A stretch of 61,869 nucleotides of DNA, filler included, from Parachlamydiales bacterium (GTDB lineage Bacteria > Chlamydiota > Chlamydiia > Chlamydiales > Parachlamydiaceae), in the NCBI GenBank assembly GCA_020051075.1. It is 4 parts of 4 records of this genome, joined end to end, with 100 filler letters (N's around TTAATTAATTAA, not from the genome) between each part and the next. Parts side by side here need not be neighbours in the genome. Positions count along the whole stretch, not along the records: positions 26,721 to 43,507 come from JAGVJP010000010.1; 3 more parts are not named here. The stretch is one strand, 5' to 3'. This document shows positions 37,133-57,941 of the stretch, in pieces. Each line of letters begins with the position of its first letter. Within the stretch, counting starts at the first letter, position 1. A model generated the notes under the pieces. It worked only from the letters and a program-made list of their open reading frames with translations, did no database searches and had not been told where the DNA came from. Made by a program: the position numbers and the translations under genes.

Positions 37133-38830
37133 ATGTCTAAAGCTTCATTAAAATATGTTGTTCAAATAGTCATTGTTGCTAGCGCTGTGATGATCGCCAT
37201 TCCTGGACTTCTTCGAGCTGAGCTCGCTACCGTTTCTTCTGAGAAAAAAGTCGAGCCTTCCGGGGCGATGGAACCGGACTTGGACTTAAGAGATACGCTG
37301 CCGATGAGGGAGATCTACCATCCTGTTTCGACGGATAACCCCACCGCTCAGAAAAGTTTCAACAAAGGTTTGACCTTCATCTTTGCCTTTAACCACGATC
37401 TAGCCTTCAAAGAATTTGAAAAAGCTTCTCAATTCGATCCCAATCTTGCGATGGCTTACTGGGGCATGGCTTTAGCTCTAGGGCAGAATATCAATACAGA
37501 TGTCACTCCTGAACATGAAAAGCGAGCGTATGACTATTCTCAAAAAGCTTTGACACTAATCTCTCGAGCCTCTCCTGTAGAACAGGCCTATATTAAAGCA
37601 TTGGTGCAGAGATATACAAATGATCCCTCAGGAGATCTTGTGGCTTTACGTTATAAATATCGCGATGCCATGAAGGAGGTGTCCACAAAATATCCTGAAG
37701 ACTTGGATGCAGCATGCCTTTATGCAGAAAGTATCTTGGATATAGATCCGTGGAAATACTGGACATGGGATGGAAAACCGAAAGCAGGGACTCTTGAAGC
37801 GATCGATGTTCTCAGATCAGTACTTGACCGCAATCCCGAACATATTGGCGCTAACCACTATTCCATTCACGCTTGGGAGGAATCCCCAACACCCGAACGA
37901 GCGCTGCTATCAGCTTTTCGCTTGACGCATCTACTCCCTGAGTCGGGTCATCTGATGCATATGCCCTGTCATATTTTCATCCTCTGCGGTTATTATGACA
38001 ACGCGATTAAAACAAGTAAAAAAGCCATTGCAGCTGATCGTGAGTATATTCATGAACATGGAATAGATGGGGATTACCCCCTTCATTATTTAACCCATAA
38101 TATGAGAGTTCTATCTAGAATTTATATGCTGTCTGAAGATTACGAAAATGCCATCCGTACTGCAGATGAATTGAATCAATTGATCAAACCTTATTATAAA
38201 AAAATGCCGGATCTTCTGAGGTTTATGATGGCTTCCATGGAGGTCAATCTCTATTTCCATCGTTGGAAGGAGATTTTAGCCTTTCCTCGTCCCCCTGAAG
38301 ATTATGCTGCCACAGTAACCTATTGGTATTTTAGCCGAGCGATGGCTTTGATCAATTTAGGAGATGTCGATGCCTATCGTAAGGAGAGGAATTTGATGAT
38401 GGAGTCTAAACAGAAGATTAAAGACAGCGATGAGATTGGAAATAATCCTGCTTTCAAAATTTTTGAATTAGGAGAAATTCTCCTCGACGCTGCACAAGCA
38501 CGGTTTTTTGGAGAGCATTCTGCTCATATAGAGAATTTAAAAAAAGCCGTTGAAGTGCAAGACCGCTTGAACTATGACGAACCGCCAGCATGGTATGTCC
38601 TAAGTCGAATTGAACTTGGCAAGGCATTTTTGGTTGGAAAACGTTATGAAGAAGCAGAAATGATGTTCAAAAAAGGGTTAACGGAGTTGCAACGCAATGG
38701 GAGGCTCCTTTTTGGCCTTCATTTAAGTCTTAAAGAACAAGGTCGTGCGTGGGACGCTTATTGGGTCGAAAGAGAGATGAACAGAGCGTTGAAAAACTCA
38801 TCACAACAGTTAACTCTCGACAATTTGTAG
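37133..38830 (+). CDS. Secreted TPR-repeat protein
   Basis: Signal peptide; FAFNHDLA, DPNLAMAYWGMALALG, HIGANHYSIHA, GHLMHMP, YDEPPAW. Confidence 0.8.
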   Translation: MSKASLKYVVQIVIVASAVMIAIPGLLRAELATVSSEKKVEPSGAMEPDLDLRDTLPMREIYHPVSTDNPTAQKSFNKGLTFIFAFNHDLAFKEFEKASQFDPNLAMAYWGMALALGQNINTDVTPEHEKRAYDYSQKALTLISRASPVEQAYIKALVQRYTNDPSGDLVALRYKYRDAMKEVSTKYPEDLDAACLYAESILDIDPWKYWTWDGKPKAGTLEAIDVLRSVLDRNPEHIGANHYSIHAWEESPTPERALLSAFRLTHLLPESGHLMHMPCHIFILCGYYDNAIKTSKKAIAADREYIHEHGIDGDYPLHYLTHNMRVLSRIYMLSEDYENAIRTADELNQLIKPYYKKMPDLLRFMMASMEVNLYFHRWKEILAFPRPPEDYAATVTYWYFSRAMALINLGDVDAYRKERNLMMESKQKIKDSDEIGNNPAFKIFELGEILLDAAQARFFGEHSAHIENLKKAVEVQDRLNYDEPPAWYVLSRIELGKAFLVGKRYEEAEMMFKKGLTELQRNGRLLFGLHLSLKEQGRAWDAYWVEREMNRALKNSSQQLTLDNL

Positions 38831-38870
38831 AGCGGTTGTGAAAGCGCAGGTCTTTGAAAAGTCTAAAGTC

Positions 38871-38899
38871 TTGACGAAGATACGATTATACTTTATGTT
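38871..38899 (+). promoter_or_regulatory. Putative sigma66 promoter of the collagen genes
   Basis: TTGACG-N17-TATGTT. Confidence 0.45.
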
Positions 38900-38946
38900 G
38901 GCGTTAATTTGAATTTGATGGCGATGTAAGCAACTGAGGGAACAGA

Positions 38947-39861
38947 GTGAACCGTGTTTTCCAACTTTTTTTAGCTCTTATTGTTTCAATCACACAGCTT
39001 CCGGCTGAAAATCATCTCCCAACTGTTATCAATGGAACCGGTTTGGATACGATCAACCGATTCTTTGCTGATTTCTCTCATTTCGAGCATTGCATTCCCC
39101 CAAAAAAAAAGAGAAAGAAAAGAAAAAAACATAAAAAACGGATCTGCTGTGTTCGGGGTCCAATAGGGCCCACAGGGGCTACGGGAATAACAGGTCCTAC
39201 AGGAGCTGTTGGGCCGACGGGACCAGCCGGTGCTTCTGGATCGATTGGTCTGACAGGAGCCATGGGACCCGTCGGACCTCAAGGGCCAACAGGGCTCACC
39301 GGAGCGCAAGGACCTCAAGGTCCAGCTGGGAGTACAGGAGCGACAGGATCTTCATTTATAGGCAGTTATTTCTATGTCTATTTGTCAAATTTTGGCGAAA
39401 TCTCTGTAACCTCGCCAACGAACCCCGTTCAAACATTGATTCCATTTAACACCAGCGGCCCAGTTTCCCCAGACTGGACCTTACCCGCACTTCCAAGCGA
39501 CACTTTTACGATTCCCAAAACTGGGAAATATTACATTTCATTTCAGTCAAATTTTGAATTTTATGCCTTCCAAATTCTCTATGAACTTAATATCCTAGTG
39601 AATTCTGTCGCTGCCGCAGGAACAGACGTTTATACCGAGGCTGTCCAAGATGTCATGCAGACAGGTGTCGTTATCCAGATTGACGAGCAATTAGGAAGCA
39701 GCTGTATCCTTGATCTTGCTCAAGGAGACTCAATTTCAGTTAAAATGTCGCTTTGGTTTCCATCATTTTATTCAAGTGCTGAACTCATTATTCCAGCATC
39801 GACAAACTTCTCTCCTTATACAAGTGCTCGGTTATCAATAGTATTAATTGAAGAAGGGTAA
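38947..39861 (+). CDS. Collagen-like protein 1 (signal peptide, basic/Cys linker, 22 Gly-X-Y, C1q/BclA-like head)
   Basis: [16 protein letters not shown] then GPI...[16 protein letters not shown] and [12 protein letters not shown]. Confidence 0.88.
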
Positions 39862-39908
39862 ATTTAGTGGAAGATAGGTCATGATTAATCACAGGAGCAC
39901 CTCTTAGA

Positions 39909-40793
39909 ATGTCAATGATTTCAAAATTTATCTCATACACCCCTTTAGCAAAGCTTCTGATTTTTTTGCTTTATTGCCATCGGATTGAAGCTGACGCTAA
40001 TGTTCAACATGATGTGGAAACTTTAAGTCAGAAAATTAAAGAAGCCTGTCCTAAACATCAGGATAAAATAAGAGGGGGGATGCGATGTTGTAGGGGGCGT
40101 ACAGGAGCTACGGGTCCAACTGGTATGACAGGAAGCCAAGGGTTTACCGGGGCTCAAGGGGCAACGGGAGCAAAAGGTCAAACTGGAGCGATAGGTCCAA
40201 CAGGCCTACAAGGGGCGACTGGGATGACGGGTTCCCAAGGGCTGACAGGTTTGATTGGTCCGACAGGAGCTATAGGACCGAGTGGGGTTTCGAGTTCTGG
40301 AAATTATCTTTATGCGTATAGAACGTCACAGTTTGAAGTCGATAATCTTACAAAAAACACTATTAGCAACTTCATTATTGGCTTTGAAGATTATGGTCCC
40401 ATTTCGTCAAATTGGTTGGGTCTGAACCCAACTCCAGGAGCTTCTTTCATTGTTCCACAAACAGGTGTCTATTTGGTTTCTTATGCTGTAGAGATATTCG
40501 AGATTATCAACTCCGACTTTGATTATCTAGAGTATCGCTTTCAATTAGTCACCCAACCAGGTGAAATTCCTATTGCAGGGACAGATATTGAGGAGCGATT
40601 TAAGACGACCAACCTAATCCAAACCACTTGTTTTGAAAATAGTGTTGTAGTGAATCTTACTGGAACTGACACGGTGGCATTGCAAGTGTCAACATATCCA
40701 AGTAATGACGGGTTTCAACTTCTCATTCCTACACAAGGTAATTATGCGCCAACATCAGCATCAATTTCATTTGTTCTCATCAACCCAACCTAA
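39909..40793 (+). CDS. Collagen-like protein 2 (22 Gly-X-Y, C1q/BclA-like head)
   Basis: RCCR then GRT...[16 protein letters not shown] and [12 protein letters not shown]. Confidence 0.88.
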
Positions 40794-40805
40794 TTGCGAG
40801 TTGTA

Positions 40806-41873
40806 ATGCCAATTAATAAAAAAAAATCAGAATATGTCAAATTTGCCTTATTAATGCTCATTTTTTTCCCTCTATCGACAATATGTTCTGAAATTCGTGA
40901 TGTTGATGAAATCGAAGCAGCTCTTCCCCTATCTTTCAGTCCTCTTGTCAACCTACACGATCTTACTCTTCGGTCTGGCAAAAAACATTCTCGCAAGTGC
41001 CATAAATGTCGCCCCTGTCATAAACGAAAGAAGGTCATCGGTCCTACCGGAGCTACGGGACCAATGGGAATACCTGGAGCAACAGGATTAATCGGGGTAA
41101 CAGGGCTTGCAGGAGCCACAGGCGAAGCAGGGAACATAGGGGCAACCGGGGCAATAGGATTAACGGGTGCTACAGGTGGAATAGGAATAACTGGGATTAC
41201 AGGTTCCACGGGACCTATAGGGTTGACAGGTCCGGAGACGACTGGATTTGACAATTACTTATTTGCTTATACAAGCAAGATAGTAAGTCAAAGTGGTTGT
41301 GGGAGTGAATGCGATCTTCTAATCGCCTATGAAACGATTCCAGCTGCATCTCAAAATTGGCTACTGATTAACCCCATCCCTCCGACTGGAATCGACACAT
41401 TCAATGTTCCTCAAAACGGTGTGTATTTATTCACCTATCATACGGAAATTCTTACTATGTTAGGTTGGGAGTATGCGATGGAAATCCTCGTTAATGGTTC
41501 CAGAGCACCAGGAACGGATCTGTTTGGATCAACGGCGTATATTAATGGTGGACTTCCTGAGGTTCAATTTGGATTTGTGCAGAATTTTGGAAAAACAGCT
41601 CTTGTGCAGTTGACAGCCGGGGAAACAGTGTCAATTAGATTAAAAACTCAATTATCTGGTCCTGGGTCGACAGAGCTCGTCGTGCCCCCACCTTGTGCAT
41701 TTCCTCGAGACAATCCCTGCACCCCGTTTTATAGTCCTTTTACAACAGGAACACTCTCCATTGTTCTTGTTGATGACAATCCTTCGCTTCTGAGATCTGT
41801 GACATCGGGTGCGGCATCTCCTCCGTTCAAAAAAACGGGTTCCCTCCGGAAATGTTCCTGTCAATCACCTTAA
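40806..41873 (+). CDS. Collagen-like protein 3 (22 Gly-X-Y, C1q/BclA-like head, Cys-containing tail)
   Basis: [13 protein letters not shown] then GPT...[16 protein letters not shown] and [12 protein letters not shown]. Confidence 0.88.
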
Positions 41874-43507: not shown

Positions 43508-43607
43508 NNNNNNNNNNNNNNNNNNNNNNNNNNNNNNNNNNNNNNNNNNNNTTAATTAATTAANNNNNNNNNNNNNNNNNNNNNNNNNNNNNNNNNNNNN
43601 NNNNNNN
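43508..43607. other. Artificial contig linker
   Basis: N-run with TTAATTAATTAA. Confidence 0.95.
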
Positions 43608-57841: not shown

Positions 57842-57941
57842 NNNNNNNNNNNNNNNNNNNNNNNNNNNNNNNNNNNNNNNNNNNNTTAATTAATTAANNN
57901 NNNNNNNNNNNNNNNNNNNNNNNNNNNNNNNNNNNNNNNNN
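57842..57941. other. Artificial contig linker
   Basis: N-run with TTAATTAATTAA. Confidence 0.95.

What the first reader, a model, noticed from the sequence alone, without database searches (positions are those of the whole stretch)
38947..41873. Three divergent tandem collagen genes each with exactly 22 Gly-X-Y triplets: candidate bacterial heterotrimeric, C1q-like collagen
Counted by hand: gene 1 GPI...GSS = 22, gene 2 GRT...GVS = 22, gene 3 GPT...GPE = 22 uninterrupted triplets, although X/Y residues and flanking domains differ strongly. Each has a signal peptide, a basic Cys-containing segment just before the helix (RICC, RCCR, CHKCRPC) and a C1q/TNF/BclA-like head (F.VP..G.Y...Y; L..G/T-D/E.V). 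Established: collagen repeat number usually drifts freely, characterised bacterial collagens (Scl1/2, BclA) are homotrimers, and animal C1q is an A/B/C heterotrimer from three clustered genes with N-terminal disulfides. Inference: equal length is maintained because the three chains co-assemble in register.
Basis: partly seen in the sequence, partly recalled or inferred. Interest (0 to 1): 0.82.

Follow-up and report, generated by a model that had tools for sequence, protein, structure and literature searches.

The report
Three-chain bacterial collagen in a chlamydia
An uncultured chlamydia has three neighbouring collagen genes whose stalks are exactly the same length and change length together in related copies, so the three proteins likely wind into one mixed fibre, an arrangement the papers we read describe for animal collagens such as C1q but not for bacterial ones.

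Summary
Confirmed: three tandem genes each encode 22 unbroken Gly-X-Y triplets, a signal-like N-terminus and a C1q/TNF/BclA-fold head; the heads are only 25-36% identical. The host is a chlamydia.

A paralogous A-B-C cassette in the same genome has 29/28/29 triplets, exactly +21 residues per chain from first glycine to head. B and C orthologues, inferred to share one contig, have 45 and 46, reached by different internal duplications. The helices show no DNA homogenisation. One contig from a relative lacks all three genes together. A predicted ABC complex passed (0.61; best control 0.40), but homotrimers were not modelled. Of 13 three-gene units examined, 11 match within two triplets, and they arose several times separately.

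Best reading: a secreted ABC heterotrimeric collagen, likely a surface adhesin (about 0.62; 0.77 for any mixed trimer). Assembly is not shown. Ordered collagen gene triplets are known in Pasteuria ramosa, function unknown. The scan noted this idea before on other DNA: another cassette in this genome and a giant-virus trio.

The parts
38947..39861 (+). Chain A gene (304 aa): signal-like N-terminus, K/H-rich segment ending CCVR, 22 triplets, C1q/BclA-type head
39157..39354 (+). Chain A collagen stalk, 22 Gly-X-Y triplets
39355..39858 (+). Chain A head, C1q/TNF/BclA jelly-roll fold
39909..40793 (+). Chain B gene (294 aa): signal-like N-terminus, CC before the helix, 22 triplets, head
40095..40292 (+). 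Chain B collagen stalk, 22 triplets
40293..40790 (+). Chain B head
40806..41873 (+). Chain C gene (355 aa from ATG 40806; upstream TTG at 40794): signal-like N-terminus, three Cys before the helix, 22 triplets, head, short basic tail with two Cys
41040..41237 (+). Chain C collagen stalk, 22 triplets
41238..41780 (+). Chain C head
38871..38899 (+). Sigma-70-like site upstream of gene A (9 of 12 matches); not above chance for the region
   Evidence: 7 sites found, 6.1 expected
38788..41869 (.). Stretch skipped in one contig of a relative: the TPR gene end joins the downstream convergent gene with 74 letters between, so all three genes are absent together
   Evidence: run X2 record 2 (one contig, depth 8.7)

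Best explanation
The three genes encode three different chains that likely leave the cell by their signal-like peptides and are predicted to assemble one of each (A-B-C) through their C1q-type heads, which would zip the three equal 22-triplet stalks into one triple helix about 19 nm long, likely displayed on the cell surface as a host-binding fibre. Shown: the anatomy, the fold of head A, three stable chain classes, and matched change of length. Inferred: the heads select their partners; a chain that gains triplets alone leaves an unpaired overhang, so selection pulls the other two to the same length; the cysteines before the helix clamp its N-terminal end or tie the fibre to the cysteine-rich chlamydial envelope; three different head faces widen or sharpen what the fibre binds. 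The 19 nm uses 2.8 A per residue from PMC12357932.
For: (1) The paralogous cassette C88 has spans 87/84/87 aa. First Gly to the head's first aromatic residue is 71/71/73 here and 92/92/94 there, +21 in every chain. Its single break in A' is a Gly-to-Ala change, since the 90%-identical P0009 has 29 unbroken triplets. (2) Chain identity predates the cassette duplication: clade A 86/93, clade C 82/94, B unresolved; each head's best cross-cassette BLAST match is the chain of the same position. (3) Orthologues P0003 (B, head 58% identical) and P0010 (C, 62%) have 135 and 138 aa stalks and each lies on a JGI contig of 7931 bases (same contig inferred). They grew by different internal repeats, periods 26/47 against 12/24/36, and share at most 5 identical residues in a row. 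(4) No homogenisation among the window's helices: 48-58% DNA identity, Gly third-position matches at shuffle level, longest shared run 9-11 nt. (5) Length drifts fast: 21 against 309 aa in two L057 genes with 85% identical heads. (6) One contig of a relative lacks all three genes. (7) ABC model: score 0.61, best of 3 controls 0.40; the mark was reached by 116 of 157 solved complexes and 2 of 215 mismatched pairs; runs agree in at least 88% of contacts; partner pLDDT at least 72. (8) 11 of 13 three-gene units match within 6 aa, several with breaks at the same triplet; 22 of 33 adjacent pairs in relatives match within 6 aa against 3.2 expected.
Against: No biochemistry exists, and homotrimers were not modelled. 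C1q/BclA trimers are solved, so the pass may reflect likeness to them; the job was unlike the tool's calibration, and cutting 8 triplets per chain built the register in. The C88 B' and C' helices resemble each other in register (24 X/Y matches against 14.4, p=0.001, 1 of 15 comparisons), so shared descent or old conversion contributes there. The third cassette is off by one triplet, and its A chain and DNA were not found. Unmatched neighbours exist: L057 21/60/309, L036 26/74, L059 24/39, L058 24/12, L056 18/27. Most relatives' triads are their own clades, so equal length there may partly be inherited from one ancestor. Open-frame lengths were visible when I chose those loci. Coupled stalk lengths are also reported for separate collagen-like trimers (F-Anchor and BclA, PMC12357932).
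Confidence: 0.62

Rival explanations
1. Each chain forms its own homotrimer; the three fibres are bundled or stand side by side in one surface layer, and their lengths are matched so that the heads reach the same height.
For: A 2022 review calls prokaryotic collagen-like proteins homotrimers (PMC8968730). AF3 found no heterotrimers of C. difficile BclA1-3 (bioRxiv 2025.06.24.661383). F-Anchor and BclA stalk lengths are coupled (PMC12357932). Single genes with related heads exist in relatives, e.g. L067 and L033.
Against: Height matching would not need residue-exact agreement (+21/+21/+21) or breaks at the same triplet in all chains (L022, L053, L189). The F-Anchor/BclA coupling is a bias in average length, not equality. 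Adjacent clusters with helices came in twos, threes and one six, never four or five (loci can be cut short). The ABC model passed.
Confidence: 0.17
2. The chains mix freely (AAB, ABC, BBC and homotrimers); equal length is kept because any combination must zip, and the mixture diversifies the binding surface.
For: It predicts the same length matching. Matched two-gene clusters (126/125, 81/78, 429/427, 270/276) show that strict three-chain use is not universal. With chain A replaced by an unrelated protein, chain C still scored 0.40.
Against: The heads are 25-36% identical, keep a fixed order and class across cassettes, and are absent together in the empty site. This fits fixed, non-exchangeable roles better.
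Confidence: 0.15
3. Equal length is a neutral leftover of triplication from one gene, or of gene conversion between neighbouring repeats; the proteins need not interact.
For: In-register likeness of the C88 B' and C' helices; relatives' triads are each monophyletic.
Against: Lengths differ between cassettes (22, 29, 45-46) on a timescale shorter than the A/B/C split. The window's helices show no conversion signal, and P0003 and P0010 expanded by unrelated repeat units.
Confidence: 0.06

Closest known systems
Complement C1q (A, B, C chains)
   Same: Three related chains, each with a short Cys-bearing N-terminus, a collagen stalk and a C-terminal gC1q head, forming an ABC heterotrimer (passages of PMC3334295). 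Head A matches human gC1q by fold. That the C1q genes are clustered is recalled, not from a call.
   Different: Bacterial. Thr rather than hydroxyproline dominates the Y position (10-12 of 22). No kink in this cassette. Nothing here shows the A-B / C-C disulfide pattern or the 18-chain bouquet. Three-gene units arose separately several times within chlamydiae, so this would be convergent with C1q.
Pasteuria ramosa collagen-like protein (PCL) gene triplets, groups 1-2-3
   Same: Ordered, co-oriented triplets of divergent collagen-like genes, duplicated and gained or lost as units (passages of PMC13233619, PMC10329263, bioRxiv 2025.03.22.644704 and 2024.02.09.579640); Pcl7 has a BclA-like head (PMC7743900).
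   Different: Those are spore proteins of a Bacillota parasite. The papers call the triplet layout apparently unique to P. ramosa and its function unknown; one speculates that heterotrimers could add variation. The passages read give no repeat-length comparison, and I could not obtain PCL sequences.
Bacillus BclA, F-BclA, L-BclA and C. difficile BclA1-3
   Same: Thr-rich Gly-X-Y stalk with a C-terminal C1q/TNF-fold head; a CC motif before the stalk is described for L-BclA-type proteins.
   Different: Described as homotrimers on spores; AF3 argued against heterotrimers in C. difficile. The chains here carry signal-like peptides and stay under the BclA_C cut-off.

Membership tests
Prokaryotic collagen-like protein with C1q/BclA head | Gly-X-Y repeat domain | tested here: met
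   22 triplets each; Pfam Collagen above cut-off in all three
Prokaryotic collagen-like protein with C1q/BclA head | C-terminal C1q/TNF jelly-roll head | tested here: met
   Model of head A matches BclA, C1q, TNF; B and C by homology. BclA_C scores 35.8, 20.9 and 24.3 are under the cut-off of 38
Prokaryotic collagen-like protein with C1q/BclA head | Homotrimer (as the 2022 review states) | not tested
   The single complex job went to ABC; indirect evidence points away from homotrimers
C1q-like heterotrimer | Three distinct, stable chain types | tested here: met
   Clades A 86/93 and C 82/94, B unresolved but best-match consistent
C1q-like heterotrimer | Chains of matched stalk length and register | tested here: met
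   71/71/73 against 92/92/94; 135/138 in a third organism
C1q-like heterotrimer | Physical 1:1:1 assembly | tested here: inconclusive
   Model passes, 0.61 against best control 0.40, but may reflect likeness to solved trimers
C1q-like heterotrimer | A-B and C-C disulfides, hexamer-of-trimers bouquet | not testable with these tools
   Cys are present before each helix here but in only one chain of the C29 triads
Pasteuria PCL triplets | Ordered, co-oriented three-gene unit that duplicates as a whole | tested here: met
   C114 and C88 cassettes, ABC-ABC on C29; empty site
Pasteuria PCL triplets | Descent from PCL groups 1, 2 and 3 | not testable with these tools
   No PCL sequence obtained; host phylum differs

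The most novel reading that the evidence does not exclude
Bacteria build obligate heterotrimeric collagens. Environmental chlamydiae evolved them many times over by triplicating a BclA/C1q-head collagen gene and letting the heads specialise, in parallel with animal C1q. Matched stalk length is a genome-readable signature of such complexes; it would explain the Pasteuria ramosa gene triplets and supply small bacterial chain-selecting heads for making defined ABC collagen in E. coli.
Probability: 0.5. Interest if true: 0.85.

Novelty: new variant of a known kind. Interest (0 to 1): 0.74.

Why it matters
A 2022 review treats prokaryotic collagen-like proteins as homotrimers and names this as a limit for modelling animal heterotrimers (PMC8968730). 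A natural bacterial ABC collagen would overturn that and give a simple system for how chains are chosen and put in register. It offers a testable reason for the Pasteuria triplets, whose function a 2023 paper calls unknown (PMC10329263). It also points to a surface-fibre family in environmental chlamydiae for which my searches found no paper. Three heads of about 170 residues that pick each other would be useful for recombinant heterotrimeric collagen.

Tried and rejected
The DNA of the third cassette was not retrieved: two metagenome scans found no relative, and a word search with head A found only the window's own protein among 91 candidates. No close orthologous cassette was found in those searched: 5 of 400 genomes of the order matched the head profile, the 4 others weakly, and the best family hits lay as single genes. 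A published Pasteuria primer had no match in the species-genome collection, and part 1 of 7 of the G3 supplement, with its table of contents, showed no sequences; PCL repeat lengths are therefore untested. bioRxiv supplements are closed and may hold PCL sequences. No RNA holder was listed, so expression is untested. Promoter and terminator scans were at chance level. A plasmid search with prfB did not help with taxonomy. No IAT_beta barrel was found in the own genome. P0011 (B-like) and P0014 (C-like) both have 24 triplets but lie on different short contigs, so I did not count them. Gene conversion was rejected for the window's cassette. The helix caller cut spans short and was replaced by that.

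Full report
OBSERVATION. The three genes lie head to tail on the + strand at 38947-39861, 39909-40793 and 40806-41873, with gaps of 47 and 12 bases. Each has one unbroken run of 22 Gly-X-Y triplets, and no other run of 7 or more exists in the window. Each begins with a hydrophobic, signal-like stretch (heuristic) and has cysteines just before the helix. Each ends in a head with a weak BclA_C match. An AlphaFold2 model of head A (pLDDT 83) matches ExsF/BxpB, BclA, C1q, cerebellin and TNF. The heads are 25-31% identical to each other in the multiple alignment and 30-36% pairwise. Three random picks from 110 such genes give one span in 1.3e-4 of trials.

HOST. The window is four contigs joined by N spacers; the genes sit on contig C114. 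YebC on the next contig is 63-75% identical to its closest matches, mostly chlamydial MAGs. MenD on C114 is 45-56% identical in 3 of 5 family genomes tested. An OmcB-like gene is present under the cut-off. The host is an uncultured chlamydia; the assembly is 99.9% complete with 5.7% contamination.

CO-VARIATION, THE KEY TEST. The same genome holds a paralogous cassette on C88 with 29/28/29 triplets. From the first Gly to the first aromatic residue of the head the distances are 71/71/73 in the window and 92/92/94 on C88: each chain is 21 residues longer. Position equals ancestry: A groups with A' (86/93) and C with C' (82/94), while B is unresolved in that tree but B-B' is the best cross-cassette match and was supported at 95 in a quick tree. 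A profile search of 1.84 billion proteins gave 58 hits, 11 at E up to 1e-10. Among them are a B orthologue (P0003) and a C orthologue (P0010) with stalks of 135 and 138 residues. Each is on a JGI contig of 7931 bases, so I infer one cassette; its DNA and A chain were not found. The two stalks doubled by different internal duplications. Across cassettes the classes take many lengths (A 22, 29, 29, 31; B 22, 28, 45, 24; C 22, 29, 46, 24), so length is set per cassette, not per family.

ANCESTRY AND CONVERSION. The window's three helices share 48-58% DNA identity, no excess of synonymous Gly matches and no run over 11 bases. Against my reading, the C88 B' and C' helices do resemble each other in register (p=0.001, 1 of 15 comparisons). 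Length can move fast: two L057 genes with 85% identical heads have 21 and 309 residues.

ONE UNIT. One 658-base contig of run X2 joins 38787 to 41870 with 74 letters between, so that relative lacks all three genes (one contig). Runs X6 and X7 hold pieces of all three genes, mostly 90-95% alike. Their listed insertions and deletions fall outside the helices, which are only partly covered.

WIDER PATTERN. Contig C29 of the same genome carries six genes as ABC-ABC of a second family: spans 167/161/162 and 151/149/146, with breaks near triplets 6 and 16-17 in most chains. I fetched 80 stretches, 77 from relatives, chosen from search hits; open-frame lengths were visible when I chose, so the sample is not blind. 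Left out were genes with N in the helix, open ends, and the multi-domain locus L080. In the first sample 14 of 22 adjacent pairs matched within 6 residues against 3.05 expected. In the second 8 of 11 matched against 1.0; the 3 misses are off-frame ORFs inside long repeats. For heads under 40% identical and stalks of 30 residues or more the count is 9 of 12 against 1.5. Of 13 complete three-gene units with helices, 11 match within 6 residues, including 79/79/79 with breaks after triplets 8, 8 and 9 (L189); L026 differs by 14 and L057 by 288. Six of the relatives' triads form their own clades (five at SH-aLRT 95 or more, L176 at 92; quick tree), which points to repeated separate origins and leaves room for inherited length in those. 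Kin are not independent, so the p-values overstate.

MODEL OF THE COMPLEX. Heads plus the last 8 triplets of A, B and C scored 0.61 (median of 3 runs) against a best control of 0.40; the mark was reached by 116 of 157 solved complexes and 2 of 215 mismatched pairs; contacts agree in at least 88% and the partner's pLDDT is at least 72. Both stalk and head strands touch. C1q-type trimers are solved, so the pass may be likeness. Homotrimers were not run.

MECHANISM. Shown: anatomy, fold, chain classes, matched change. From established knowledge: C1q-type heads trimerise and collagen zips from the C-terminal end (abstract listing of PMC11923368); C1q is ABC (passages of PMC3334295). Inferred: export to the periplasm by signal peptides, partner choice by the heads, zipping of three equal stalks, clamping or anchoring by the N-terminal cysteines, and a role in binding the host cell. 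The route across the outer membrane is unknown: several relatives' clusters have a beta-barrel gene directly upstream, this one does not.

LITERATURE. I read passages found by term, not whole texts. [quoted passage not shown] Pasteuria ramosa has ordered triplets of collagen-like genes, described as apparently unique to it (PMC13233619) and of unknown function (PMC10329263). PMC7743900 speculates on heterotrimers without a test. PMC10987987 shows that one Pcl7 domain can give attachment when displayed alone, a reminder that such heads can work outside a triplet. Nine searches listed no paper showing a bacterial heterotrimeric collagen or describing these chlamydial genes; the library lacks most subscription journals, and I did not see McElroy et al. 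2011, which these papers cite.

EARLIER SCAN NOTES. e1-8254724 noted a duplicated three-gene cassette on another piece of this genome, by its description the C29 cluster, with the same idea and the Pasteuria comparison; I had measured C29 and read the Pasteuria papers before seeing it. e1-5567598 noted a giant-virus trio with 32 triplets each; I did not test it.

VERDICT. The heterotrimer reading survives its main refuting test and gains three further lines: independent expansions to matched length, joint absence in a relative, and a passing model. It remains unshown biochemically. New variant of a known kind; interest 0.74.

Noticed in passing
L022:93-6963 (G000:C29): Six tandem collagen genes forming two ABC triads of a second family, with helix breaks at matching positions; near dnaB.
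   Followed up: yes
L021:3640-7233 (G000:C88): Paralogous ABC cassette with 29/28/29 triplets, directly after a DUF3604 gene.
   Followed up: yes
L023:8034-8936, L025:3447-4334, L180:3033-4073, L089:5871-6899: An outer-membrane beta-barrel gene (IAT_beta or Legionella_OMP family) lies directly upstream of matched collagen genes in four relatives; a possible exporter or anchor.
   Followed up: partly
L028:4200-5090: A family-92 glycosyltransferase gene follows a matched 429/427-residue collagen pair; a candidate for glycosylating the Thr-rich stalk.
   Followed up: no
L054:4210-6435 and L062:3716-5838: Three-gene clusters of C1q/BclA-type heads with no collagen stalk called; candidate head-only heterotrimers.
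   Followed up: no
L084:1878-14291, L174, L085, L066: Very long collagen stalks of several hundred triplets in related chlamydiae, some with assembly gaps.
   Followed up: no
G000:C73:1-1359 (-) and G000:C4:2-952 (+): Two contig ends carrying the same two-triplet repeat, probably the halves of one long collagen gene split by the assembly.
   Followed up: no
window:31201-34063: Type III polyketide synthase with a methyltransferase-like and an FAD-oxidoreductase-like gene converging on it, beside menD and a hydrolase; a small natural-product cluster.
   Followed up: no
window:26930-28537: A 535-aa protein without an assigned family, with a polyproline tract and coiled-coil-like stretches; looks like a host-directed actin-type effector by inspection only.
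   Followed up: no
window:26621-26720, 43508-43607, 57842-57941: N spacers with a linker between contigs C112, C114, C116 and C128; gene order across them is not real.
   Followed up: yes
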